From contig CAIOZS010000112.1 in assembly GCA_903862845.1 (NCBI GenBank), forward strand, positions 1 to 62,220: a stretch of 62,220 nt of DNA, read 5' to 3'. This DNA is from an uncultured Thermoleophilia bacterium. Lineage in GTDB: Bacteria > Actinomycetota > Thermoleophilia > UBA2241. The notes beneath the pieces are model-generated. The model did not search any database. It had not been told where the DNA came from and saw nothing but the letters and a program-made list of their open reading frames with translations. The translations under genes and the position numbers were made by a program. Positions 14,151-42,417 of this stretch are shown one piece after another. The first letter of the stretch is position 1. Every line of letters starts with the position of its first letter.

Positions 14151-14266
14151 CCGAGCTCCTTCCACTCGTCCATACTTGACTGCACGCCGTTGGGGCCGCC
14201 GGGGAGCCCCCTCTCGTCCCGGGACGAGCCCCTTCGTCCAACACCAGGAGAGCACTGGGAAGTGGC

Positions 14267-15751
14267 ATGAGCGAACCCGTTCCATCCGAGCCCGGAGTGA
14301 GGAGCCTGAAGAGGGCGCAGGTCCGCATCATCACCGTCTTCTTCATGATCTACATCCTCGTTTCGGGCGGCTCGTTCGGCATCGAGGACATGGTGTCATC
14401 GTCCGGGCCGGGCCTGACGCTCCTCCTCCTCATCCTGCTGCCGATCTTCTGGAGCATGCCGATGGCGCTCATCGCCAGCGAGCTCGGGTCGGCACTGCCC
14501 GGCGAGGGCGGCTTCTACGTCTGGACGCGGCGCGCGCTCGGCGACTTCTGGGGTTTTCAGACCGCCTGGTGGTGGTCGCTCTCGATCTTCGTCGACTCGT
14601 CCGTCTACATCGTGCTCGGCGTCGGCTACCTGCAGAACTGGCTGGGCTTCAGCCAGCTCTGGTTCTACGTGATCTGCTGGGCCATCATCGCCGTCTTCGC
14701 GACCATGAACATCATCGGCGTGAAGCTCATCGCGCTCAGTTCGACGCTGTTCTCGATCCTCATCCTGGCGCCGTTCTTCGCGCTCATCGTCGTCGGCCTG
14801 GCCAAGTGGAACTTCAACCCGCTGACCCCGGTCACGGTGCCGGGCGCGCCCCTTTTCGGCAGCGGCGGCGTGTTCGCGCTCGGCCTCGCGATCGGCGTGT
14901 GGATGTATTCGGGCTACGAGTCGATGTCGACCCTTTCGGGCGAGATCCGCAACCCGCAGAAGATCATCCCGCGGGCCCTCATGCTGGCGGTGCCGTTCAT
15001 CATCATCATGTATGTGCTACCCACGCTCGCGAGCCTCGCCGGGTACGGCCACTGGGACAGCTTCGCGACGCAGGCCGGCGACGGCTACGTCTCGTTCGTC
15101 GAGATCGGCAAGTCGCTGGGTGGCTCTGCGCTCGGCGTCGCGCTCCTCGCCTCGGCGCTGCTCGGCAACCTCGCCCTCTACCTCGACTACCTCGCCTCCG
15201 GCGCCCGCCCGCTGTTCGCGATCTCGGCGGACGGGCTGTTTCCCAAGTCGATCTCCATCGTGAGCAAGCGCTTCGGCACGCCGATCGCCGCCATCCTGCT
15301 CATGGCCGCGCTCAACGCGGTCCTCATCGTCGGGCCGTTCCAGAACCTCGTGGTGATCGACGTGATCCTCTTCATCTCCGCCTACGTGCTCATCTTCATC
15401 TCGGCGGTGCGCCTGCGCATCAAAGAGCCGAATCTCAAACGGCCCTTCCGCGTGCCGTTCGGCACCGCCGGCATGGTGGCGATGGTCATCCCGCCGATCC
15501 TCATCGTCATCTTCACGATCTACGTCAACGCCATCGACCGCAGCACGACGATCTTCGGATTCACAGGCTTCAGGTTGCTCGGCATCGACGTGGGCTGGTA
15601 CGGCATCGCCGGATTCGTCGCGCTGCTTTCCGGCCCGGTGCTGTACTCCGTGTTCCGGGCCATCTACGGCGGGCCGCGCAACCCGTCGCGCGAAGCCGGC
15701 AACGAGGCGCTCACCCTGGCCGAGGCCGAAGCCGCCGAGGACGCCGCCTGA
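14267..15751 (+). CDS. APC-family amino acid/polyamine permease
   Basis: About 12 hydrophobic segments; GGSFGIE, ELGSALPGEGGFYVW, GYESMSTLSGEIRNP, LRIKEPNLKRPF. Confidence 0.9.
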   Translation: MSEPVPSEPGVRSLKRAQVRIITVFFMIYILVSGGSFGIEDMVSSSGPGLTLLLLILLPIFWSMPMALIASELGSALPGEGGFYVWTRRALGDFWGFQTAWWWSLSIFVDSSVYIVLGVGYLQNWLGFSQLWFYVICWAIIAVFATMNIIGVKLIALSSTLFSILILAPFFALIVVGLAKWNFNPLTPVTVPGAPLFGSGGVFALGLAIGVWMYSGYESMSTLSGEIRNPQKIIPRALMLAVPFIIIMYVLPTLASLAGYGHWDSFATQAGDGYVSFVEIGKSLGGSALGVALLASALLGNLALYLDYLASGARPLFAISADGLFPKSISIVSKRFGTPIAAILLMAALNAVLIVGPFQNLVVIDVILFISAYVLIFISAVRLRIKEPNLKRPFRVPFGTAGMVAMVIPPILIVIFTIYVNAIDRSTTIFGFTGFRLLGIDVGWYGIAGFVALLSGPVLYSVFRAIYGGPRNPSREAGNEALTLAEAEAAEDAA

Positions 15752-17184
15752 TGCAGACCCGGATCCAGATCCTTTCGGAGGCCGAGAAGGCGCAGGTCCA
15801 CGAGCGCACGCTGAAGGTGCTCGGCAGCGTCGGCATGCGCTGCGACACCTCCGAAGGGCGCCGGATCCTGGCTGCCGCCGGCGCCCGAGTCGACGAGGCC
15901 ACGCGCATGGTCCGCTTCCCGCCCGAGCTCATTGAGCGCTCACTGGCTCAGGCGCGCAAGGAGTTCACCGTGCACGGCCGCCGACCGGGCTGGAGCTTCC
16001 CTCTCAACGCCGGCGAGTCCACGCTCCTCGCCGACGGCGGCGCCACAGCCGTCTTCGACGCCGCCACCGGCGAGCGCCGGCCCACGACGCACGCCGACTG
16101 GCTGGCCGCCACCCGGCTTCACGATGCGCTCGACGACGTCGGCTTCTACTGGTGTCCCGTCGACTACGCCCTCGACTACGAGCAGCCGGGCGGCTTCGTG
16201 CGCTACTACGCGGACGTGTTCGCCACCTTCGGCAAGCACGTGCAGGATTCGTTCGGCACGCCCGCGCTGGCGCCGTGGCTCAAAGAGGTGCTCGACATCG
16301 TGTTCGGCAGCCGCGAGGCCGTGCGCGAGCAGATGCCGTTCTCCTTCCTCATCACGCCCGCGTCTCCGCTCACCATCGAGCACGACTTCACCCAGACCTG
16401 GCTCGAGCTGCGCGACTACGGGCTGCCGGTGGCGATCATGCCGATGCCCCTGCAGGGCGCCACAGCGCCCGGCAGCCGGCTCGGCACCCTTCTGGCCGCC
16501 AACTGCGAGACTATCGGCACGCTCTGCCTGGTGCAGGCCGCGGCGCCGGGCACGCCGGTCATCTACTCGCCGGTGATCGCGACGATGGATCCGCGGTCGG
16601 GGTCGTATGCCGCCGGCGCCGTCGAGCACGCCGTGCTCTGCGCCGCCGGCACCGAGATGGCCCGCTACTACGGCCTGCCGGCCGAGTCCTCAGGCCTCTG
16701 CACCCAGACCTACGAGCCCGACCTGCAGACCGCGTGGGAGAAGGCCAACGGGGCGCTCCTCATCACCCTCTCAGGCCCCGACGTGCTGGTCGGTCCCGGC
16801 CTTCTGGGGGGTGCGACGATCCTCTGCCTCGAGCAGATCGTCATGGACGTCGAGATGATCCGCCTCGCCCGGCAGGCGCGCGCAGGCATACCGGTGCGCG
16901 AAGATCTGTGGCTCGACGAGATCCTCGACAAGGTCGGGCCCTGCGGCTCCTTCCTCGGCGAGCGCTCGACGCGGCAGAACGCCCGCCGCGGCGAGTGGCG
17001 CCTGAGCGACCTCGGCGTGCAGGGCAGCTGGGACGCCTGGCAGGCGGCGGGGTCGCCGACCACGGTCGCCGCCGCCCGTGAGCGCGTCGAGCAGCTTCTG
17101 GCGGGCCAGGTTTCGCTGCCCTACAGCGACGGCCAGGCCGCGGCTCTGGCGGATCTGCAGCGCCGCGCCGACGCAGCGTCCTAA
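15751..17184 (+). CDS. MttB-superfamily corrinoid methyltransferase, non-pyrrolysine
   Basis: ATG overlaps the permease TGA (TGATG); LSEAEKAQVHERTLKVL, PASPL, GATAP, YYGLP, EQIVMDVEMI; no in-frame TAG. Confidence 0.88.
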   Translation: MQTRIQILSEAEKAQVHERTLKVLGSVGMRCDTSEGRRILAAAGARVDEATRMVRFPPELIERSLAQARKEFTVHGRRPGWSFPLNAGESTLLADGGATAVFDAATGERRPTTHADWLAATRLHDALDDVGFYWCPVDYALDYEQPGGFVRYYADVFATFGKHVQDSFGTPALAPWLKEVLDIVFGSREAVREQMPFSFLITPASPLTIEHDFTQTWLELRDYGLPVAIMPMPLQGATAPGSRLGTLLAANCETIGTLCLVQAAAPGTPVIYSPVIATMDPRSGSYAAGAVEHAVLCAAGTEMARYYGLPAESSGLCTQTYEPDLQTAWEKANGALLITLSGPDVLVGPGLLGGATILCLEQIVMDVEMIRLARQARAGIPVREDLWLDEILDKVGPCGSFLGERSTRQNARRGEWRLSDLGVQGSWDAWQAAGSPTTVAAARERVEQLLAGQVSLPYSDGQAAALADLQRRADAAS

Positions 17185-22762: not shown

Positions 22763-23170
22763 TCAATCCGCCGTGCCCGTGCCGGTGGGGTTGGTCATCT
22801 CGTTGACCCACTTCTTCAGGCCGACGTAGCGCAGGAGCTTGAACACGTAGGTGTCGGCGTGGGCCTTGGCTTCCACCGTGAACACGGTAGCGCCGTCGGG
22901 GCTGGTGCTCGAGGAGAAGGCCACGAGCTTCTCGTTCGCCTGGATGAGGTACTGCTTCGCCGCGAGCTTGGCGGCGGCGAGGTCGAGCGTCAAGGCGTAC
23001 TCCGTCTGTGCCTGCGTGGCCGCCGTCGCGGCGTCTGCCTTTACCGACTGGTGGACGTTGAAGAGGGCGAGCCCGTCGAGCACGACGACGGCGAAGATCG
23101 CCAGACCCAGGACGAGCCACAGGACCTCGCGAATGAAGCCGTCCTGCCGGCGCAGACGTGCGCTGTTCAT
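22763..23170 (-). CDS. Tad/prepilin-like single-TM protein
   Basis: RBS AAGGAGG; basic leader RRQDG|F followed by a hydrophobic helix. Confidence 0.55.
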   Translation of the reverse strand: MNSARLRRQDGFIREVLWLVLGLAIFAVVVLDGLALFNVHQSVKADAATAATQAQTEYALTLDLAAAKLAAKQYLIQANEKLVAFSSSTSPDGATVFTVEAKAHADTYVFKLLRYVGLKKWVNEMTNPTGTGTAD

Positions 23171-23230
23171 CGCGCTGCCTCCTTGCCTGTCTTCGCTCGT
23201 CGCCGCCGCGGGGGCCGGCCGCCTTCGTCG

Positions 23231-24556
23231 CTAGTGTACTCCAGGATCGCCCTCGAGCCGGATGCAGAGCAGCGCGAGGTCGTCGCCCGGCGGCCGGGCG
23301 GAGAAGGCCTCCCCGGCGGCCATAAGGCGCGCCACGATGTCGGCCGCCGGCACATCGTGGCACGCCGCCAGCAGGCCGCCCATCCGGTCCTCAAAGAACC
23401 GCCCGCTCGCGTCGCGCAACTCCGCGATGCCGTCGGTGAAGAGGACAACGACGTCGCCGCGCGTGAGCTCGATGGTCTCCGTGGGGTAGGGTGCAAGTGC
23501 CGCGCCCAGCTCCACGCCGATGGCGGGCTCGGTGAGCAGCAGTGGCCGCTCGACGCCGGTTTTGCGCACGATGAAGGGCGTGGGGTGCCCGGCGCTGGCG
23601 AGCTGTAGCAGACCCCGGCGCGTGCGGAGCAGCCCGAACAACACCGTGACGAAGCGCTCGGAGCCGGGGCCGAAATCGGGCTGCTCGAGCAGGCCCGTGC
23701 GCAGCTCCTGGAGCGCCTCGCCGGGGCTCGTCGGCCACGAGAGCTGGCCGCCGTGCACCGCGGCCCGCAGCATGTACTTGGTGACGAACGTCACGGCCAT
23801 CGCCTCGACGCCCTTGCCGGCCACATCGCCGATGGCGAACGCGAGAACGCCCGGGGAGCGACTGTAATAGTCGACGAAGTCGCCGCCGCTGAGCACGCCG
23901 GCGCTGGCCGAGCGGTACAAGAAGGCGATGTCGAGACCCTCCAGGTCCGGCGGCTCCTGAGGCAACAGGCGCCGCTGCAGACGCTCGGCGATGTCGGCGC
24001 GCGCTTCGCAGTCCGCGGCGAGGCGTCCGTCGCGGATGGTGCGGCGCAGGCGTAGCGACACCATCTCGCCGAGCGCAGCGAGCAGCCGCACGTCGCGCCC
24101 CGTGAAGTCATCGTCCCGGTCGCCCACGGCGAGGAAGCCCCGCGGAGCACCTTCAGCGCCGGGCAGCGGCACGCACGCAAAGCGCTCCATCCCGGGGACG
24201 CCGCTGATGCCGGGGGCGTTCTCCCTCGCGCCCGAGTCTCCGGCGTCCAGCACCGGCCTCGCCGTGCGACAGACGACGCCGGGCGCGCCCTCGCCGGCAG
24301 CCCAGCGGCCGGGCGCGCGCGTCCAGCCTGAGCCGACCTCGTAGCGGGCCTCGCTGGTCGCCGCCACGCCGTCGAAGAGACCGGCCACCCCGCGGCGAGA
24401 GCCGCTGGCGCGGCAGGCCGCCTCCACGGCGGCGCGCAGCACGTCGGTTTCGCTGCGGGCTTCCATAAGGGCCGCAACGTCGCCGAGCAGCTCGAGGCGC
24501 GCGTCGCGGTCCTGCCCGCCGGAAGCGCGGCGACCGTGGTCGCTCGCCGCCGGCAC
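23231..24556 (-). CDS. GAF + SpoIIE/PP2C (RsbU-like) phosphatase
   Basis: LQRRLLP, SGGDFVD, IGDVAGKG, SAGHP, FTDGIAE, DDLALL; start approximate. Confidence 0.9.
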   Translation of the reverse strand: MPAASDHGRRASGGQDRDARLELLGDVAALMEARSETDVLRAAVEAACRASGSRRGVAGLFDGVAATSEARYEVGSGWTRAPGRWAAGEGAPGVVCRTARPVLDAGDSGARENAPGISGVPGMERFACVPLPGAEGAPRGFLAVGDRDDDFTGRDVRLLAALGEMVSLRLRRTIRDGRLAADCEARADIAERLQRRLLPQEPPDLEGLDIAFLYRSASAGVLSGGDFVDYYSRSPGVLAFAIGDVAGKGVEAMAVTFVTKYMLRAAVHGGQLSWPTSPGEALQELRTGLLEQPDFGPGSERFVTVLFGLLRTRRGLLQLASAGHPTPFIVRKTGVERPLLLTEPAIGVELGAALAPYPTETIELTRGDVVVLFTDGIAELRDASGRFFEDRMGGLLAACHDVPAADIVARLMAAGEAFSARPPGDDLALLCIRLEGDPGVH

Positions 24557-24557
24557 C

Positions 24558-25100
24558 CTAGCGACCCCGCGAGGCCAGGAGGAACAGCGCGATCGCCTGG
24601 ACGCCGAGGGCGAGCAGCGCGATGCCCATGGCGACGTCGAGGCGCACGCCCACGACGAAGACGACGAAGACGAGGGCCGCCGCCCACAGAAGAGCGCCGG
24701 GGGCGACGCGCAAGAAGAGGCGTCGCCGAAAACCGAGCCATGCGAGGCGGCGGCGCATGCCCGAGCCGCGGGCATCGTCGTCGAGATAGCTGGAACCACG
24801 GGCGTGGAGCGCCGTGGTCAGCTCGCTGCCATCGCTTGCGTACAGGCGGGCCTGAAGCGGCAGTCCGGCCTGCTGCCGCAGCACGGCGTCCTGGGCGCGG
24901 GCGAAGTACTCGACCAGAGAGAGAAAGCGGTCGTCGGCCGAGAGCTTGTGGCTCTCCAGCCGCACCTCGAGGTAGAGGCGGTCCTCGGCCGGGTCGAACT
25001 TGATCTCCGAGCGCCACCCGCGGCGGTTGAAGAACGTGCCGAGAAAGCGGTCGAGGTCGGCCGGGATGCTCTCGACGTCTGGTCGCTTCGCGATGCTCAT
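24558..25100 (-). CDS. Hypothetical membrane protein (two C-terminal TMs)
   Basis: Coding-like ORF abutting the phosphatase gene; hydrophobic C-terminus. Confidence 0.7.
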   Translation of the reverse strand: MSIAKRPDVESIPADLDRFLGTFFNRRGWRSEIKFDPAEDRLYLEVRLESHKLSADDRFLSLVEYFARAQDAVLRQQAGLPLQARLYASDGSELTTALHARGSSYLDDDARGSGMRRRLAWLGFRRRLFLRVAPGALLWAAALVFVVFVVGVRLDVAMGIALLALGVQAIALFLLASRGR

Positions 25101-34878: not shown

Positions 34879-36177
34879 TCAGGGGCTCGGCGACGGCGAA
34901 GCCGGCACGCCCGCGCCCCGGGGCTTCAGCCCCTCCGCGAACGCGATCAGCTCCTGACGCGTGAGGGCGCCGGTGACGTAGACGATGTGTCGCGCGTCGC
35001 CCGTGAGCAGCGTCGGCCCGCTGTTCTCATACCACGTGTACGCGGTCGCGCCGGTGAGCGCACCGTACTGCAGCGTCGTCGCCTCATACGACAGCTTGCC
35101 GGCGGCGATCGATGGGAGCGTGTCGCGCAGAAACGCGGCCGAGCTGCCCGCCGCCTGCGGCCCCAGTTGCTGCACCGCGAACCAGCTCAGTCCGCGCGTG
35201 TAGAGCTGTGCCACTTGGCGCTGCCCGGCGGGCAGGTCCACCGGCGTGCTTTGCCCGTTGACCAGCCAGGCGCCCGGTGCCCCCTTGGTGTCCGCGGTCG
35301 CGACGGCCCTGAGAGTGAAGCCGTCCGGCGCGAGATCCGACGCAAGCGGTGCATAGCCGGCCGCGCGGCCGGCCGCGTTCAGGGACGGCGCGTATGCGTA
35401 GGTCGTGTCGCGTCGCGTCGCGATCACATCTCGAGATCCGGCAGATCCCAGCGAGGCGCCGGCGCCGCCGAGCTGGTCGCGCGACGGCGAAACTCCCCAG
35501 GCGGGGGTGGCGCTGAAGGTGTCGGTTCGCGAACCGCTGGTCTGCGAGTACCAGACGACGAGGCCCGTCTTCTGGTCGACGACCAGCTCGACGGTCGATC
35601 CGTCCAGTCGCATCGCGGCGCGCCACACTGTGCGGTCGCCATCCTTCAGCGGCTTGATGCCCACGGTGCGGTCCTTGTCTTCGACCGCCGAGCGTACAAC
35701 GGCGGCGAGGCCCTGATAGTCGAGCGGGCTGAGAGTGCCGACTCTCCACACCGGCGGCCAGGCATCCAATGTCCTTCGCGCCTGCGTCCCGGAGGCGCGG
35801 ATCCAGGTGCTCAGCTCTGCGCGCGAGCTCGCCTCATAGGACGAGCGCAGCTGCGCGAAGTCGCCGGCCTGCGTCGCCGGACCGGGCCGCAGCGTCCCCC
35901 CCGCGTCGCCGGAAGCCAGCGCGACGAACGAGCCGGAGAGCGTGGATGCAGGATGCGGCGTCGCTCCCGGCGCAGGAGTCGCACGGTCGCGCACGAGGAC
36001 GTACGTGCCCTGGATGCTCGCGACGTCTGGCGTGGGGATGGGCGGCGGCGTGCGCAGGAGGAATACGTAGGCGAGGGCGAAGACGATGCCGAGGGCCATC
36101 GCCGTAGCCGCGAAGCGCGGCGGGCGGCGGCTCACCCGCGCCGCGCGCAGCTCGCGGCTCGTGCGTTCCTGCTGCAT
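34879..36177 (-). CDS. Hypothetical membrane-anchored exported protein
   Basis: N-terminal TM (AMALGIVFALAYVFLL), Pro-rich linker, C-terminal SPSPSP; start approximate. Confidence 0.7.
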   Translation of the reverse strand: MQQERTSRELRAARVSRRPPRFAATAMALGIVFALAYVFLLRTPPPIPTPDVASIQGTYVLVRDRATPAPGATPHPASTLSGSFVALASGDAGGTLRPGPATQAGDFAQLRSSYEASSRAELSTWIRASGTQARRTLDAWPPVWRVGTLSPLDYQGLAAVVRSAVEDKDRTVGIKPLKDGDRTVWRAAMRLDGSTVELVVDQKTGLVVWYSQTSGSRTDTFSATPAWGVSPSRDQLGGAGASLGSAGSRDVIATRRDTTYAYAPSLNAAGRAAGYAPLASDLAPDGFTLRAVATADTKGAPGAWLVNGQSTPVDLPAGQRQVAQLYTRGLSWFAVQQLGPQAAGSSAAFLRDTLPSIAAGKLSYEATTLQYGALTGATAYTWYENSGPTLLTGDARHIVYVTGALTRQELIAFAEGLKPRGAGVPASPSPSP

Positions 36178-36208
36178 CTTCAGGCTCGGCGGCGCGTCCC
36201 CGCGCCGC

Positions 36209-36352
36209 CTATGACCCTCCGCTCCGCCGGCCGCCCCAGGCGAAGAACAGCGGCAGAAAGAGGAGCGCAAAGCCGAAACGGCGCGAGATGAAGAGCGTCA
36301 GCGCCGCGATCAGCAGGCTGAGGCCAATGAGCATGAGGGTGCGTTGACTCAC
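36209..36352 (-). CDS. 47-aa membrane peptide (absent from ORF track)
   Basis: Manual translation MSQRTLMLIGLSLLIAALTLFISRRFGFALLFLPLFFAWGGRRSGGS. Confidence 0.6.
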   Translation of the reverse strand: MSQRTLMLIGLSLLIAALTLFISRRFGFALLFLPLFFAWGGRRSGGS

Positions 36353-36474
36353 GCGGCAAGCGTGACGGCCCGAGGGCGGCGGCGCAAGCCGCCGCCCGAG
36401 GGCTGGCAGGCGGACGTTCGCCTGTGATTACCTTGGCGGGCACCATCGACCCCCACCACCGGAGGAGGCAGGGC

Positions 36475-37944
36475 GTGAAACGCAATCTGTTCGCCGGCCG
36501 CAGGCGCAGCGGCGGCATCGGCCTCGACGTGTTCACCGACGACGAGATCCAGGACGTCCATCTCGCGACCCTCGAAGTGCTGGAGCGCACCGGGGTGTGG
36601 GTGGAGATCGACGAGGCGCTCGACATCTTCAGTGACGGGGGGTGCGTAGTCGACCGCGAGTCGCACACCGTGAGGATCCCGCCGCACCTCGTGGAGGACG
36701 CCATCCGCAGCGCGCCCGCCAGCATCACGCTGTGCGGCCGCGACCCGGCCAACGACATTGTCATCGGCGCCGGCCGCGTCGGCTTCAGCAACTTCGGCGA
36801 GGGCGTCATGGTCGTCGACCCGTACAGCGGTGAGCTGCGATCGTCCACCAAGCAGGACCTCAGCGACATCGCCAAGCTCGTCGACGCGCTGCCCGAGGTG
36901 GACGTCTTCGAGATCGCCGTCGGCGCCGGCGACATGCCGCCGGCGACGGCTTCGATCCACAACCACGAGGCGGCCATCGCCGGGCAGACCAAGCCGATCT
37001 CCGGCGGGCCGCTCGACGGCCGCGCCGTGCGCATCAGCCTGGCCATGCTCGAGGCCGTGCAGGGCAGCGCCGACGCCGTGCGCGAGCGGCCGATGATGAT
37101 CATGGGCACTTGCCCCGTGAGCCCGCTGAAGCTGGTGAGCGATTGCTGCGAGATCGTCATCGAGGCGGCGCGCGCCGGGGTGCCGAGCTGCGTGCTCAGC
37201 ATGGCCATGGCGGGCGCTTCCGGCCCCGTCACGCTCGCCGGGACGCTGGTCACCCACAACGCCGAGGTGCTCGCCGGCATCGTGCTGGCGCAGCTCACGG
37301 AGCGCGGCGCCAAGGTGCTCTACGGCTCGTCGACGACCGCCATGGACCTGCGGCTGGCGGCGGCCTCCGTCGGCTCGCCGGAGTGCGCCCTGATCAGCGC
37401 CGGCGTGGCCCAGCTCGCCAGGCAGTACCGCCTGCCGAGCTACATCGCCGGTGCGTAGGGCGACAGCAAGCTCAGTGACGTGCAGACCGGTCACGAGAAA
37501 ACCCTCACGGCCTTGATGGCAGCGTTGGCAGGGACCAACCTGATCTACGGCCTGGGAATGATCGAGTCGGGCGTCACCTTCGACTACGCGCAGCTTGTGA
37601 TCGACGACGAGATCGCGCGCATGGTCAAGCAGGTCGTCGGCGGCATCCGCGTGAGCGACGAACGCCTCGCGGTCGACGACATCGCGAGAGTCGGCGCGTT
37701 CGGCGACTTCCTAAGCCTGGATGCGACCATGGCGCACATGCGCGAGCAGTCGCAGCCGAAGCTCATCGACCGCCGCGTGCGCGAGGACTGGGAGGAACGT
37801 GGCGGCACCGACATGTATCAGCGCGCCCAGGTCCGGGCCCGCGAGATTCTCGAGACCCACGTGCCCGAGCCGCTGCCCGACGACGTGCGGCAGCGGGTCC
37901 GCAAGATCGTGGGCGACGCCGATCGCGAACTGGCCGGCGCCTGA
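36475..37944 (+). CDS. mttB: Trimethylamine:corrinoid methyltransferase, pyrrolysine-containing (in-frame TAG 37456-37458, codon 328 of 489)
   Basis: RBS GGAGGAGG before GTG 36475; CPVSPL, LSMAMAGASGPVTLAGTLVTHNAEVL, YGSSTT, VGSPE; ...YRLPSYIAGA-TAG-GDSKLSDVQTGHEKT... stays in frame and matches the Pyl site of methanogen MttB (LPSYVAGS-O-SDAK...GHEKT). Confidence 0.95.
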
Positions 37945-37946
37945 CG

Positions 37947-38618
37947 TCAGTCGAGCAGCCAGTCCTTACCGGTCGCGAGGTGCGTGCGCAACGCGTAGCC
38001 GCCGCTGGCAGTGACCGAATAGCCGAAGTCGCCCGTCGCCTCGCTCTGCGTCACGGCGGCGTGCGTCCAGGGGTTCTGTGGCCAGACCGGCACGCCGGGC
38101 TGCACGCCCACGGGCCCGCCGCTCGCTACGTCGGCCGCGGCCGGGGCGACCCCGGCGTGCGTGCGTGCCCACATCTCCACGTACTGTTGCAGCAGGGCCA
38201 GCCCCGCCTTGGTAGATGCGTCGCGCTCGTCCCTGAGCCAGCCGGGGACTCCGCCGCTGACCTTGTACGAGCCCTTGGAGAGGTGGCCGACCAGAGTGTA
38301 GCCGCTCAGGTCGGCTTTCACTTTGTACGTGTAGGTGCCCCTCGAGGTGCCGGGCGCCATTGTTCCGCCGGTCCAGGGGTTGCCCGGCCAGACCGGCGCG
38401 ACCAGAGCGCCGCCCTTCACCACGTCGCTGCGCGCCGGGAACACGAAGCCGTTGCTCTGGGCCTGGGTGTTGATGTAGCCCTGCAGGAGCAGGATATTCA
38501 TCTGCACCTGTTTGTCGACGAAGCTCACGGCCGCGCTTGCGGCGGCCGGCAGCGTAGCGGTGGCAGCCAGGACGGCGACGAGCACGACGAGGAGGATGCT
38601 GAAGCGGCGCGTTCTCAT
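37947..38618 (-). CDS. Secreted protein with two pseudopilin (GspG)-like WPxNPWT domains
   Basis: RBS GGAGG, Sec signal peptide ending ...AAASA; internal repeat VWPGNPWTG / VWPQNPWTH. Confidence 0.75.
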   Translation of the reverse strand: MRTRRFSILLVVLVAVLAATATLPAAASAAVSFVDKQVQMNILLLQGYINTQAQSNGFVFPARSDVVKGGALVAPVWPGNPWTGGTMAPGTSRGTYTYKVKADLSGYTLVGHLSKGSYKVSGGVPGWLRDERDASTKAGLALLQQYVEMWARTHAGVAPAAADVASGGPVGVQPGVPVWPQNPWTHAAVTQSEATGDFGYSVTASGGYALRTHLATGKDWLLD

Positions 38619-38809
38619 GGGTGCCTCCAGGGGGGACGGCAGAGTGTCGCCCAAGTCTGGCCGGGGCGCCGAGACCGGTCAAGCGCACTTCGCGGCACGG
38701 GCACCCAGCCGCCGCGTGCCGGGGCGGAGCCGCGGCGCCTGATACGATGCCTCCATTGGCGCCGCGGGCTCGCGGCCGGCGCGCCAGCGACGCGAACGAG
38801 GTGATGCCG

Positions 38810-40195
38810 GTGGAAGCCAGGATCCCGACCCGCATGGGCGACGGTTTCATGGTCGAGATGACGCGCAGCGAGCTGCGCGCGGACATCCAGGTGGCCAGCG
38901 AAGAAGCGGCGCGCAGGGCCCGGGTGCCGCCGCTCACGGCCGACGAGCAGGCGCACCTGCTCGACATCTACGCGTCTCCGGCGGCCTTCACCGCCGTCGA
39001 TATCGGCGACCAGGTCGTGCTGAGCTGCGATGGCGGCGGCAGCAAGATGACGGGCACGGACATCCAGGACCTCCTGGAAAGCGAGCAGCGCCTGGGCCAG
39101 GACATCCTCGAGCTTTGGCATATCGAGTACAGCTACAAGGCGATCAAGACGATCCTGCCGTTTCAGCAGCAGGTGATGCAGAACGCGCAGCTGATGCTCA
39201 CGGCACCCATTCAATACGGCGCGCAGCCCAACCTCGCTTTCTACAGCAAGCCCGACGGCCCGGCCAGCAACTGGTTCGAGCTGCTCCCCAAAGGGGACAT
39301 CGCCGGAGCGCGGGCAGCCATCGACGAGGCGATGGAGCACGCGACGCAGGACATGGTGTACGTCACGGGCGGCATGATCGAGGCCGGCGCCGACGGTGTC
39401 GACTTCGACACCACCGGAGGCGCCGGCGACGGCGACTTCCTCAGCACCCTGCGCGCCGTGAAGCACGTGCGCGAGAAGTACCCGGAGGCCGGCATCGAGC
39501 TGGGCATGGCCGGCGAGCTCGTGATCGGCGTGCACGGCGAGCTTGAGTGGGAGGGCCGCCGGCTCGCCGGCCTGTGGCCACGCGAGCAGCTCGAGGTGTG
39601 CCAGGACGCCGGCGTCACCCTGTTCGGGCCGGCGGTCAACATCCGCACCAGCAAGAGCTGCGCCTGGAACATCGCCTACTCCCTCACGGTCATCAAGCCG
39701 TGCATGGAGGTGGCGCGCATCCCCGTGCACCCCAACGTCGGTGAAGGCGTGTGCGGCGTGCCGGTCAACGGCTATCCGCCCGAGGACGCCGCATCGCGGG
39801 CGGCGAAGGCCTTGGTCGACATCCTGCGCTGCGACGGCTTGTAGGTGGGCTCGGGTGACTCCCGGGGAATGGACGTCACCCACGCGCTCGCCGCAGGCAT
39901 GGGCGGGATGCGCACGGCCGGAGACCTGGTCGCGCGCATGCAGATGTCCCGTGGGATGCGCTTGAAGGAAGCCAAAGACTACGTGGCCGGCAAGCTCGGC
40001 TGCACGGTTCGCGACCTCAGTGACAGCTATGCGATGGAGCAGATCCGGGGGGAGAAGGGCCTGGGCCGGATCCTCGACCACTCCAACCTCCACCCCGGCG
40101 AGCCCAACGCGATGATGGCCAAGTTCCGCATCGCCGAGCTGCTCGGCATCCGCATCAACTCGGTCGACAAGTTCAGGGACCTGGCGGGACTGTAG
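38810..40195 (+). CDS. mtbB: Dimethylamine:corrinoid methyltransferase, pyrrolysine-containing (in-frame TAG 39842-39844)
   Basis: TRMGDG, HIEYSYK, YGAQPN, PDGP, GADGVDFDTTGGAGDGD, GMAGE, LAGLWP; ...ILRCDGL-TAG-VGSGDSRGM...GMRTAGDLVARMQ matches MtbB (GVDGI-O-IGVGDPLGM...GDLVARM); start 38810 or 38804. Confidence 0.93.
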
Positions 40196-40667
40196 CCGGG
40201 CCCTTGCGGCGCAGGATCTGCCCCACCATGGTCGAGGCCACGCCGATGGGCACCAGGAGGATGCCCGTCAGGAGCGTGACGTACAGGCCGAGGCCGGGTC
40301 GATACAGCTTGACCATCGAGTCGGCGGCATCGATCGCCTGCAGCACGAACACAATGCCGGCGACCGCGACGACGGCGCCGGCGGCCATCGTCAGCAGGCG
40401 GGGCCCGAGGACGAGCGACACGACGCCGACAACCACGACGGCGATCGCCGCCACGAGCACGGGCGGCCCCCACCTGGTGTTCAGCACCCCTACGACGCCG
40501 GGGGCCCTCTGAAGACTGAAGTTGACGTCCTCCGCCGAATAGTCGTTGGCCCACGGCAGCAGGACCGCCACAATCCCCACGGCGCCGCCGACGATCGCCA
40601 GCACGGCGTCGCCGTTCCAGTCCCACCGTGAGAATCTGTGCTTACGCATCACTGTCTTCATCGGCAT
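40173..40667 (-). CDS. Hypothetical membrane protein (about 4 TMs)
   Basis: RBS AGGAGG; hydrophobic; LLPW motif; overlaps the 3' end of mtbB by 23 nt. Confidence 0.75.
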   Translation of the reverse strand: MPMKTVMRKHRFSRWDWNGDAVLAIVGGAVGIVAVLLPWANDYSAEDVNFSLQRAPGVVGVLNTRWGPPVLVAAIAVVVVGVVSLVLGPRLLTMAAGAVVAVAGIVFVLQAIDAADSMVKLYRPGLGLYVTLLTGILLVPIGVASTMVGQILRRKGPATVPPGP

Positions 40668-40835
40668 CCGTCGGCTGCCTCCTGATACCTCGCCGCGAGC
40701 CGCGCCCAAACGTCCTCGTCGCGCCAATCGCTGAAGGAAGGCGCCCCTCGCGCCGATAGAGAAGCTGGCCGGCGGAGGACGCGCCGGCCGCGAGGGCCGC
40801 TCGTAGCGGCTGCCGGCAAAGACGGAGGAATGTGC

Positions 40836-41213
40836 ATGAGACGCGTCGTGAGCATCGCGCTGCTGGCGCTTCTGGCGCTCGGGGTCGCCGGCGCGATGGC
40901 CGCCTGTGGCACGAAGGACATCCAGACGCCCACCGCCAACATCGACGTGGCCAAGAACCTGGCCGCGAAGGGCGAGATCATGATGGTGAAGACGGGCGTC
41001 GCCGCCTACGTCGCGACCAACGGCACACTCCCGGCGACGGCGACGCAGGACGTGCTCGGCAGCTTCGTGGACCCCTGGCCCAAGAACCCCTGGACCCAGG
41101 CCCCGATGGCGCAGGGCACGCAGTCGGGAGACATCGCCTACACGCCGGGGGCCGGCACGAGCTACACGCTGGGCGTGGTGCTCGCCGACGGAAGCGTCTT
41201 CGCCGCCCCCTGA
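40836..41213 (+). CDS. Lipoprotein with pseudopilin (GspG)-like WPxNPWT domain
   Basis: RBS GGAGG; lipobox-like MAA-C; DPWPKNPWTQAPM. Confidence 0.75.
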   Translation: MRRVVSIALLALLALGVAGAMAACGTKDIQTPTANIDVAKNLAAKGEIMMVKTGVAAYVATNGTLPATATQDVLGSFVDPWPKNPWTQAPMAQGTQSGDIAYTPGAGTSYTLGVVLADGSVFAAP

Positions 41214-41292: not shown

Positions 41293-42417
41293 GTGGAGGG
41301 ACTCTCTCAGGTCGGATGGCGTGCCAAGCTCGTTCTCGTGGCCGTCGGCGCCGCCTGCCTCTTTGGCAGCGCCCTGCCGGTCGTGGCCAGCGAAGAGGCC
41401 GCCACTCCCACCTGGATGCGGCACGACTACTTCAGCCGAGGCTGGGATCGCAGTTTCAAGTGCGACCTCGCCGAGGAGATGCCCCAGGTGCCGCGCGTCG
41501 TCGTTTTCGGGGGGTCGCGCGGCCTGCGCATGGACCCGGCGACGATCAAGCGTTGCACGGGCCTCACGGCATTCAACTTCGCCTTCCACAACGGCCGCCC
41601 CGAGGATTCGTGGGCAGTCACCGATTGGCTCATCGACACCCACCCCGACAAGCCTCCGGCCGTGATCTGGTGCATCCAGCCCACGACGCTGACCGACGTG
41701 CCCATGGCCCCCGGCCTGATCGTCGACAAGCGACTCTCGCAGGCGTTCCCGAAGGCGCTCATCAAGGCGCAGTTGGCCGCTGTGATGCGGCAGCCGAAGC
41801 ACAACGTGCTCTCGGGACGCCGCTTCGGCTTCGACGGGATGCTCTGGTGGAATAACTACGACCGCAAGCGCAAGGAGGGCATCACCCTCGAGCAGTCACT
41901 CATCCGCTACCTGGACACCAAAATGCTGGCCAGGGCCGGCAACGGCAAGATCCCGCAGGGCACCCGTGCGATGGCGTACTTCGCGCGCACGATCCGCCTG
42001 CTGAACGCCAACCACATCAAGCCGCTGATCGTGATCATGCCGTACCACCCCCAGGCGCTCAGGGCCTTCATGTCGGTCGGCTGGGGCGTCAAGGAAGTCT
42101 GGCTGCGCTCGTATCTCGCGAGGCTCCAGAAGCACTTGAGCTTCAAAGTGCTGAATTGCCTGCAGATCAGCACGTTCGGCGGCAGTCCGGACGGCTTCTA
42201 CGACGGCGCTCACCTGACCGCGGAGAACGCGCGGCTCCTGATCCGCTACTGCGTCCGGATGGCGCCGTCGTGCTTCCGCGTGCCCACGCCGGCGCCGAGC
42301 CCGTCGCCGAGCCCGAGTCCGTCGCCGAGCCCGAGTCCCAGCGGCGCACCCGTGCCGGCGCCGGCGTACACGCCGGTATCCGAGGACTCGAGCGTCCCGG
42401 CCGACCTCCTCGAGTAG
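41293..42417 (+). CDS. Secreted SGNH/DltD-like protein with Pro-Ser tail
   Basis: Signal peptide; VFGGSR, FNFA, FYDGAHL (DxxH). Confidence 0.65.
   Translation: MEGLSQVGWRAKLVLVAVGAACLFGSALPVVASEEAATPTWMRHDYFSRGWDRSFKCDLAEEMPQVPRVVVFGGSRGLRMDPATIKRCTGLTAFNFAFHNGRPEDSWAVTDWLIDTHPDKPPAVIWCIQPTTLTDVPMAPGLIVDKRLSQAFPKALIKAQLAAVMRQPKHNVLSGRRFGFDGMLWWNNYDRKRKEGITLEQSLIRYLDTKMLARAGNGKIPQGTRAMAYFARTIRLLNANHIKPLIVIMPYHPQALRAFMSVGWGVKEVWLRSYLARLQKHLSFKVLNCLQISTFGGSPDGFYDGAHLTAENARLLIRYCVRMAPSCFRVPTPAPSPSPSPSPSPSPSPSGAPVPAPAYTPVSEDSSVPADLLE
42295..42342 (+). repeat. Coding (Pro-Ser)8 low-complexity repeat
   Basis: Tandem ccg-agc / ccg-tcg / ccg-agt codons. Confidence 0.8.

What the first reader, a model, noticed from the sequence alone, without database searches (positions are those of the whole stretch)
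36475..37944. mttB with in-frame amber codon at the Pyl site, split by the ORF caller
TAG 37456-37458 is followed in frame by GGC GAC AGC AAG (GDSK...GHEKT), joining ORFs 36424..37458 and 37480..37944 into a 489-aa protein. Length and TAG position (codon 328) are close to those of Methanosarcina MttB. Motifs typical of Pyl-type MttB (TLVTHNAEVL, YGSSTT, VGSPE) are present, so true trimethylamine specificity is likely.
Basis: partly seen in the sequence, partly recalled or inferred. Interest (0 to 1): 0.85.

Follow-up and report, generated by a model that had tools for sequence, protein, structure and literature searches.

The report
Pyrrolysine-coding mttB gene in Thermoleophilia
This is an intact trimethylamine-type methyltransferase gene whose single in-frame TAG very probably codes for the rare 22nd amino acid pyrrolysine, in an uncultured freshwater actinobacterium (class Thermoleophilia); it is real, but this kind of gene has already been reported in this phylum.

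Summary
GTG 36475 to TGA 37944 is one 489-codon frame with a single TAG at 37456-37458, which is codon 328.

The product scores 702 bits against the NCBIfam equivalog for Pyl-type MttB, where the cut-off is 525. The TAG aligns with Pyl334 of the solved Methanosarcina barkeri MttB structure.

- **Conservation in genomes:** the aligned codon is TAG in 79 of 79 related genome loci at 57-94% identity.
- **Conservation in protein databases:** 73 of the 120 best hits stop at this codon.
- **Decoding machinery:** the genome carries tRNA-Pyl(CUA), split PylSn and PylSc, and PylB, PylC and PylD.
- **Other TAG genes:** the genome also holds four more TAG-type mttB, ten TAG-type mtbB (one 0.86 kb downstream in the window) and one TAG-type mtmB.
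- **Taxonomy:** the nearest relatives are MAGs titled Thermoleophilia. PylSc is found in 49 of 54 genomes of the genus, but in only 2 of 401 sampled across the phylum.

Pyl-coding mttB and mtbB in Actinobacteriota MAGs are already in print (PMC10805028, PMC9630628). This scan has also noted the same thing on at least eight other genomes. Verdict: a new member of a known kind.

Trimethylamine as the substrate is inferred, not shown.

The parts
36461..36468 (+). Shine-Dalgarno-like GGAGGAGG, 6 nt before the GTG start
   Evidence: Read directly. Homologue alignments begin at residue 1 of the frame that starts at 36475.
36475..37944 (+). mttB, 489 codons, Pyl-type trimethylamine:corrinoid methyltransferase (TAG read through)
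   Evidence: Pfam MTTB, 330 bits; TIGR02369, 702 bits, cut-off 525; 7xcm_A E 9e-118, 7xcl_A E 5.6e-117, aligned over query residues 2-488.
37456..37458 (+). In-frame TAG, codon 328, proposed pyrrolysine codon
   Evidence: It aligns with X (Pyl334) of 7xcl_A. TAG is found in 79 of 79 primary genome-locus matches. 72 of the 73 truncated database proteins end at query residue 326 or 327. An independent contig shows no difference here.
37456..37555 (+). Match to Rfam PYLIS_3 (RF02510). I read this as coding-sequence similarity, not as a demonstrated RNA structure.
   Evidence: 62 bits against a gathering score of 38. Most model pairs are non-standard in this sequence. The folding energy is no better than shuffles, z = +0.11.
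38804..40195 (+). mtbB, 463 codons, Pyl-type dimethylamine methyltransferase. In-frame TAG at 39842-39844 (codon 347), and the gene ends at a TAG stop (40193-40195).
   Evidence: Pfam Dimeth_Pyl, 528 bits. TIGR02368, 392 bits against a cut-off of 369. Rfam PYLIS_2 at 39842-39941. Codon positions. The X9 contig 39681-40034 shows no difference.
37947..38654 (-). Conserved intervening gene for a signal-peptide protein of unknown family. It is not part of the methyltransferase system by any evidence found.
   Evidence: No Pfam or NCBIfam match. Conserved in position in related loci. N-terminal hydrophobic stretch.

Best explanation
The segment 36475-37944 is one gene, mttB. Ribosomes read its UAG at codon 328 as pyrrolysine. 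They use the genome's own tRNA-Pyl(CUA), which is charged by a split bacterial-type pyrrolysyl-tRNA synthetase (PylSn plus PylSc) with pyrrolysine made from lysine by PylB, PylC and PylD.

The full-length TIM-barrel enzyme would bind a methylated amine, most likely trimethylamine, on the pyrroline ring of Pyl328. It would then pass one methyl group to the Co(I) of a separate corrinoid protein encoded elsewhere in the genome. From there a pterin-binding methyltransferase would move the methyl group to tetrahydrofolate, and a RamA-like activase would re-reduce oxidised corrinoid.

Shown here: the gene anatomy, the position and conservation of the TAG, and the presence of every component. Inferred: that Pyl is really inserted, the substrate, the partner corrinoid protein, and the fate of the methyl group. 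Because about a quarter of this genome's genes appear to end in TAG, decoding must be ambiguous, giving either Pyl or termination, as in other Pyl users.
For: **Gene and column**
- Single frame with one TAG.
- TIGR02369, 702 bits against a cut-off of 525.
- The TAG aligns with Pyl334 of 7xcl_A.
- The catalytic-site residues named in PMC9842639 (passages read), Gly110, Met249 and Tyr364, correspond to G108, M243 and Y358 here (alignment). Among 37 TAG-type rows, Tyr is kept in 36 and Met in 35.

**Conservation**
- TAG in 79 of 79 primary locus matches and in 6 further copies. Sense codons occur only at 43% identity or less.
- Residues just after the TAG (D330, K332, D335) are invariant in 19 aligned homologues. 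They lie before the first possible restart at 37480, so they must be translated by read-through.

**Machinery in the same genome**
- tRNA-Pyl: 73 nt, CUA anticodon, 6-bp anticodon stem, 3-nt variable loop.
- PylSc 312.6 bits (cut-off 178), PylB 442.6 (348), PylC 338.5 (248), PylD 206.3 (150), PylSn 122.8 (51).
- Two RamA-like activases, one beside a pterin-binding methyltransferase.
- 14 B12-binding_2 proteins, two of them above the pyl_corrinoid cut-off.

**Lineage**
- 24 of 24 sampled genomes of the genus carry above-cut-off TAG-bearing mttB.
- 49 of 54 genomes of the genus have PylSc.

**Literature**
- Actinobacteriota MAGs express Pyl-coding mttB and mtbB (PMC10805028, passages).
Against: - No corrinoid protein gene lies in the 62-kb window. 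In the classical mtt operon it is adjacent, so the partner is unknown.
- pylSc is on a different contig (C15) from pylB, pylC, pylD, pylT and pylSn (C180). Co-regulation therefore cannot be read from the assembly.
- TAG is a common stop here: 541 of 2192 ORFs of 150 aa or more by a crude caller. This includes mtbB and pylSc themselves and a SpoIIE-type phosphatase gene in the window. Read-through efficiency at codon 328 is therefore unknown.
- No stable RNA structure follows the TAG.
- There is no protein-level or raw-read RNA evidence for this gene.
- Gly110 is less conserved in my set (27 of 37 TAG-type rows) than the paper states for its own set.
- Five TAG-type mttB paralogues in one genome make the substrate of this particular copy uncertain.
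Confidence: 0.9

Rival explanations
1. The gene is Pyl-decoded and active, but this paralogue acts on a methylated amine other than trimethylamine. The five TAG-type mttB copies would have divided different tertiary amines among them.
For: - There are five TAG-type mttB in one genome, at 54-66% identity to the window copy.
- They fall into separate starred clades, each shared with other species, so they are old, retained paralogues.
- The window copy scores lower against TIGR02369 (about 700 bits) than the copy on contig C88 (733 bits).
- The mtbB family is likewise expanded to ten TAG-type copies at 44-61% identity.
Against: - The copy is well above the equivalog cut-off.
- It keeps the Pyl, Tyr364, Met249 and Gly110 equivalents.
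- It sits beside a Pyl-type mtbB, as expected for stepwise demethylation of trimethylamine.
- No pocket residue that differs between clades was identified here.
Confidence: 0.2
2. The TAG is a nonsense mutation or an assembly error, and the gene is a pseudogene.
For: Read by table 11, the frame is broken. Gene callers output a 327-residue fragment.
Against: - TAG is at the same column in 85 of 85 relatives of 49% identity or more, and in 82 of 88 metagenome matches to a related query.
- The coding signal and protein conservation continue to the normal end.
- An independent contig agrees letter for letter.
- The complete Pyl machinery is present.
Confidence: 0.02
3. The two ORFs are translated separately (1-327 and a restart at GTG 37480) and assemble into a split enzyme without pyrrolysine.
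For: A GTG lies 8 codons after the TAG.
Against: - No Shine-Dalgarno-like sequence precedes 37480.
- The seven residues between the TAG and that GTG include invariant D330, K332 and D335. These would not be translated under this model.
- The Pyl residue itself is the catalytic group in the solved enzyme (PMC9842639).
Confidence: 0.02

Closest known systems
Methanosarcina barkeri MttB (PDB 7XCL, 7XCM, 7XCN; Li et al. 2023, PMC9842639)
   Same: Same family and length class. The proteins align over residues 2-488 at E about 1e-117. The TAG sits in the Pyl334 column, and the Gly110, Met249 and Tyr364 equivalents are kept.
   Different: The host is bacterial, with about 69% G+C. PylS is split into PylSn and PylSc. 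No mttC or mttP lies next to the gene. Thr111 is Glu here. The methyl acceptor downstream is presumably tetrahydrofolate, not coenzyme M (inference).
Pyl-coding mttB and mtbB of Actinobacteriota MAGs from a thawing permafrost mire (Ellenbogen et al. 2023, PMC10805028), and the 'two Actinobacteria' with PylRS counted by Guo et al. 2022 (PMC9630628)
   Same: Same phylum and the same pair of amber-containing genes. Relatives of the window gene include MAGs whose titles carry 'palsa' and 'bog' isolate names.
   Different: Those papers, in the passages I read, give no gene anatomy, paralogue counts or pyl-cluster layout. The runs that hold this window's DNA are labelled freshwater or lake water.
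Bacterial Pyl users such as Desulfitobacterium hafniense, Acetohalobium arabaticum, Bilophila wadsworthia and the Olavius delta-1 symbiont (named from recall, except the last: PMC1976440, search listing and abstract start only)
   Same: Split PylSn and PylSc. TAG is kept as a frequent stop. Several Pyl methyltransferase genes are present.
   Different: A different phylum. The copy numbers here are high: at least 5 mttB, 10 mtbB and 1 mtmB with TAG.
Non-Pyl MttB-superfamily members, for example glycine betaine methyltransferase MtgB (PDB 2QNE, 9YCE)
   Same: Same Pfam family, PF06253. The genome holds 29 such paralogues that span the column with sense codons.
   Different: They are much more distant (E 5.6e-72 to the window protein; 27-39% identity for the genome's own copies). 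They score below the TIGR02369 cut-off, for example 298 bits for the window's second copy. They mostly lack the Tyr364 equivalent.

Membership tests
Pyl-type MttB (NCBIfam TIGR02369, trimeth_pyl equivalog) | Whole-protein score above the curated equivalog cut-off | tested here: met
   702.2 bits against a cut-off of 525. The window's non-Pyl paralogue scores only 297.9.
Pyl-type MttB (NCBIfam TIGR02369, trimeth_pyl equivalog) | In-frame UAG at the column of Pyl334 of M. barkeri MttB | tested here: met
   The alignment to 7xcl_A places X334 opposite codon 328. The same column is TAG in 85 of 85 relatives of 49% identity or more.
Pyl-type MttB (NCBIfam TIGR02369, trimeth_pyl equivalog) | Active-site residues that position and activate Pyl (Gly110, Met249, Tyr364; PMC9842639) | tested here: met
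   G108, M243 and Y358 in the alignment. The residues were taken from passages read.
Pyl-type MttB (NCBIfam TIGR02369, trimeth_pyl equivalog) | Host genome encodes tRNA-Pyl, PylS and PylBCD | tested here: met
   All five protein families score above their cut-offs.
Pyl-type MttB (NCBIfam TIGR02369, trimeth_pyl equivalog) | Cognate corrinoid protein (MttC type) available | tested here: inconclusive
   None is in the window. Two proteins elsewhere pass the pyl_corrinoid cut-off, but they sit beside mtmB (C264) and an mtbB fragment (C20). Which protein serves this MttB is unknown.
Pyl-type MttB (NCBIfam TIGR02369, trimeth_pyl equivalog) | Pyrrolysine actually incorporated at the UAG | not testable with these tools
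   This needs mass spectrometry of the protein.
Pyl-type MttB (NCBIfam TIGR02369, trimeth_pyl equivalog) | Trimethylamine:corrinoid methyl transfer activity | not testable with these tools
   This needs an enzyme assay. The substrate is inferred from family membership only.
PYLIS_3 RNA element (Rfam RF02510) | Score above the gathering threshold | tested here: met
   62 bits against 38.
PYLIS_3 RNA element (Rfam RF02510) | A conserved base-paired structure downstream of the UAG | tested here: not met
   Eight of the model's paired positions are flagged as non-standard pairs in this sequence. The minimum free energy of -30.8 kcal/mol compares with a shuffle mean of -31.2, z = +0.11. The match is best explained by conserved coding sequence.

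The most novel reading that the evidence does not exclude
This genus of Thermoleophilia may hold one of the largest bacterial sets of pyrrolysine genes. One genome carries at least 16 amber-containing methyltransferase genes (5 mttB, 10 mtbB, 1 mtmB), in old paralogue clades at 44-66% identity that are retained across species. The paralogues would have evolved new substrate ranges for Pyl enzymes, meaning methylated amines beyond tri-, di- and monomethylamine. The Pyl-type MttB clade is also repeatedly giving rise to Pyl-free descendants (Leu with loss of Tyr364; Trp by a single TAG to TGG change), which offers natural experiments on what pyrrolysine is needed for.
Probability: 0.25. Interest if true: 0.55.

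Novelty: new member of a known kind. Interest (0 to 1): 0.3.

Why it matters
**Annotation.** Gene callers cut this gene in two. 73 of the 120 best database hits are fragments that end at the TAG, so methylamine use by these widespread freshwater, soil and peat actinobacteria is under-counted in annotation.

**Ecology.** Bacteria that demethylate trimethylamine and dimethylamine compete with methylotrophic methanogens for the same substrates. This bears on methane budgets of wetlands and lakes, as argued in PMC10805028.

**Genetic code.** For work on the genetic code, the lineage is a high-G+C bacterial Pyl user in which TAG is still a common stop. Its PylS/tRNA-Pyl pair is a further natural variant.

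Tried and rejected
**PYLIS.** The Rfam hits looked like support for a recoding signal. The alignment shows mostly non-standard pairs, and the fold is no better than shuffles. I do not count it as a structure.

**RNA evidence.** One run from a metatranscriptomic library (X15) gave contigs 90-99% like mttB and mtbB, and no cover in parts of 37948-38592. These are contigs, partly of relatives, and DNA can be present in such libraries. I do not count this as expression evidence.

**Promoter and terminator scan of 36200-40400.** Nothing usable came back: two minus-strand promoter-like sites, and two weak terminator-like sites inside the intervening gene.

**Neighbouring ORFs.** ORFs 34879-36270(-), 37947-38654(-), 40176-40727(-), 40686-41213(+) and 41293-42417(+) gave no Pfam or NCBIfam match. 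They look like secreted or membrane proteins. I found no regulator, permease or corrinoid gene directly beside mttB.

**Possible third amber gene in the window, 22763-24817(-).** Rejected. The SpoIIE domain ends before the TAG and a separate small membrane protein follows, so this TAG is an ordinary stop.

**Genome-wide list of same-frame ORF pairs abutting at TAG.** There are 91 pairs. Most are probably neighbouring genes in the same frame by chance. Apart from the methyltransferases, they were not followed up.

**Heme-copper oxidase (PF00115).** No match in this 94%-complete genome. This is a hint of an anaerobic lifestyle, not proof.

**Literature.** Searches for Thermoleophilia plus pyrrolysine and for mttB, pyrrolysine and 'sense codon' gave nothing specific. 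I did not search enough to say that the Leu or Trp replacements are unpublished. Supplements of the papers could not be seen and may list the very MAGs and genes.

Full report
**Observation**

The window (about 70% G+C) has GTG at 36475, six bases after GGAGGAGG. TAG is at 37456-37458 and TGA at 37942-37944, all in one frame. The TAG is codon 328, and read-through gives 489 residues. Third-position G+C is 0.94 before and 0.89 after the TAG.

**What the protein is**

- Pfam gives MTTB at 330 bits.
- NCBIfam gives only TIGR02369, the equivalog for the Pyl-containing trimethylamine:corrinoid methyltransferase, at 702.2 bits against a cut-off of 525.
- The best solved structures are M. barkeri MttB: 7xcm_A at E 9e-118 and 7xcl_A at 5.6e-117, aligned over residues 2-488. 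The X of 7xcl_A (Pyl334, AGSXSDAK) lies opposite codon 328.
- PMC9842639 (passages read) names Gly110, Met249 and Tyr364 as the residues around Pyl334. In the alignment they are G108, M243 and Y358 here. Thr111 is Glu.

**Is the TAG conserved?**

A scan of one genome per species returned 79 loci. The aligned codon is TAG in all 79 primary matches (57-94% identity) and in 6 further copies in those loci (49-66%). All 65 other alignments that span the column (43% identity or less) have sense codons.

Of the 120 best protein-database hits:
- 73 (67-94% identity) are truncated, 72 of them ending at query residue 326 or 327;
- 47 (46-61% identity) are full length, with Leu 19, Trp 19, Val 2, Ser 2, Thr 1 and a gap 4 in that column.

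I checked two of the sense-codon types in DNA.
- **Leu type.** In a genome of the same genus, a tandem array has three TAG copies and one copy with CTC, which codes Leu.
- **Trp type.** In metagenome contigs the Trp type is TGG in 6 contigs. Their nearest relatives, at 78-83% identity to the query, have TAG. Overall 82 of 88 matches at 45% identity or more have TAG.

I built a tree of 69 rows with LG+G4, a quick search and the Pyl column removed. Twenty of the 28 distant own-genome paralogues were left out, and only 25 of the fetched loci were used. The tree places the window gene in a starred clade of 18 rows, all with TAG. The Leu/Val clade (9 rows) is nested among the Thermoleophilia TAG clades, and starred branches force at least three changes of state. 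All nine rows of that Leu/Val clade also have Ala or Phe in place of Tyr364. The sense-codon relatives are therefore derived, Pyl-free offshoots. They are not evidence against Pyl in the window gene.

**Is the sequence right?**

The stretch occurs in freshwater and lake-water labelled runs of several studies. I laid four runs not marked as possible sources. A DNA contig (X9, 37330-37502) matches with no difference across the TAG, and another (39681-40034) does so across the mtbB TAG. No variant at either TAG is listed. These are contigs, not raw reads, and 249 weaker rows were not shown.

**Machinery**

ARAGORN finds 45 tRNA and tmRNA genes in the 4.38-Mb, 352-contig genome (94% complete). They include one tRNA-Pyl(CUA) on contig C180 and a tRNA-Sec. 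The tRNA-Pyl has the 6-bp anticodon stem and 3-nt variable loop typical of its kind.

On the minus strand of C180, pylB, pylC, pylD, pylT and pylSn (108 codons) follow one another. pylSc (286 codons, ending in TAG) is on C15. All score above their NCBIfam cut-offs.

The genome also has:
- two RamA-like activases, one beside a pterin-binding methyltransferase;
- 14 B12-binding_2 proteins;
- two corrinoid proteins above the pyl_corrinoid cut-off, next to mtmB and an mtbB fragment.

None of these is in the window.

**Context**

mtbB lies 0.86 kb downstream at 38804-40195. It has TAG at codon 347, scores 392 bits against TIGR02368 (cut-off 369), and ends with a TAG stop. mttB and mtbB are separated by a conserved minus-strand gene for a secreted protein of unknown family, and the whole arrangement is syntenic in related loci.

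The genome holds 38 MTTB-family matches. Five are TAG-type mttB, three of them cut by contig ends, and 29 are sense-codon paralogues. It also holds ten TAG-type mtbB and one TAG-type mtmB.

By a crude G+C-based ORF caller, TAG ends 541 of 2192 long ORFs. A clear example of an ordinary TAG stop lies in the window at 23231. Amber decoding must therefore be ambiguous.

The Rfam PYLIS matches reflect coding similarity. The model pairs are mostly non-standard here, and the fold is no better than shuffles.

**Who carries it**

The nearest loci are MAGs titled Thermoleophilia, Actinomycetota or Actinomycetes, with Desulfobacterales at 57-60% identity.
- In the genus, 24 of 24 sampled genomes have above-cut-off TAG-bearing mttB.
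- In the genus, 49 of 54 genomes have PylSc. Two small, 98%-complete genomes lack it.
- Across an even sample of the phylum, only 2 of 401 genomes have PylSc: this one and one in another family of the class.

**What is known**

PMC10805028 (passages) reports Actinobacteriota MAGs expressing Pyl-coding mttB and mtbB. PMC9630628 (passages) counts two Actinobacteria among 81 bacterial PylRS genomes. This scan's earlier notes describe the same finding on at least eight other genomes.

**Verdict**

This is a genuine Pyl-type mttB and a new member of a known kind. The substrate, and the meaning of the many paralogues, remain open.

Noticed in passing
window 38804-40195 (+): A second amber gene, Pyl-type mtbB, has TAG at codon 347 (39842-39844). 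Its own stop is also TAG (40193-40195). Read-through there would add 27 residues before a TGA.
   Followed up: yes
genome contigs C88, C259, C267, C269, C277, C293, C232, C172, C189, C20, C264: The amber-containing gene set is large: 5 TAG-type mttB, 10 TAG-type mtbB (44-61% identical to the window copy) and 1 TAG-type mtmB. mtbB-mttB tandems occur on C88, C259 and C277.
   Followed up: partly
L100:13041-14489 (a genome of the same genus): Within a tandem array of three TAG-type mttB, a fourth copy has CTC (Leu) at the Pyl column. Its clade (9 rows) also has Ala or Phe instead of Tyr364. This is a Pyl-free lineage nested inside the Pyl-type clade.
   Followed up: partly
L102-L106, L129 (metagenome contigs): Six contigs have TGG (Trp) at the Pyl column. 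Other hits at similar identity to the same query (78-83%: L177, L178, L181) have TAG there. This looks like a recent one-base replacement of Pyl by Trp.
   Followed up: partly
whole genome; window 23231-23233 (-): TAG is a frequent ordinary stop, ending about 25% of long ORFs by a crude caller. Examples are pylSc, mtbB and a GAF-SpoIIE phosphatase gene in the window, which is followed in the same frame by a small membrane-protein gene.
   Followed up: partly
window 14180-17166 (+): An amino-acid/ethanolamine-type permease gene is followed directly by a non-Pyl MttB paralogue (15748-17166, Cys codon at the Pyl column, 298 bits to TIGR02369). This is a likely uptake-plus-demethylation pair for another methylated amine.
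   Followed up: partly
window 37947-38654 (-) and 40686-41213 (+): Two signal-peptide proteins of no known family flank mtbB. They share motifs such as VWPGNPWT and DPWPKNPWT, and their positions are conserved in related loci.
   Followed up: no
genome contigs C180 and C15: The pyl genes are split in the assembly. pylB, pylC, pylD, pylT and pylSn lie in a row on C180, and pylSc is alone near the start of C15. About 1 kb of unassigned sequence lies on each side of pylT.
   Followed up: no
genomes G381 and G433 (same genus): Two small (1.7-1.8 Mb), 98%-complete genomes of the genus have no PylSc match, although 49 of 54 genomes of the genus do. This may be a loss of the Pyl trait in a reduced-genome branch.
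   Followed up: no
genome contig C277:7967-8064 (-): A tRNA-Sec gene is present, so the organism appears to use both the 21st and the 22nd amino acid.
   Followed up: no
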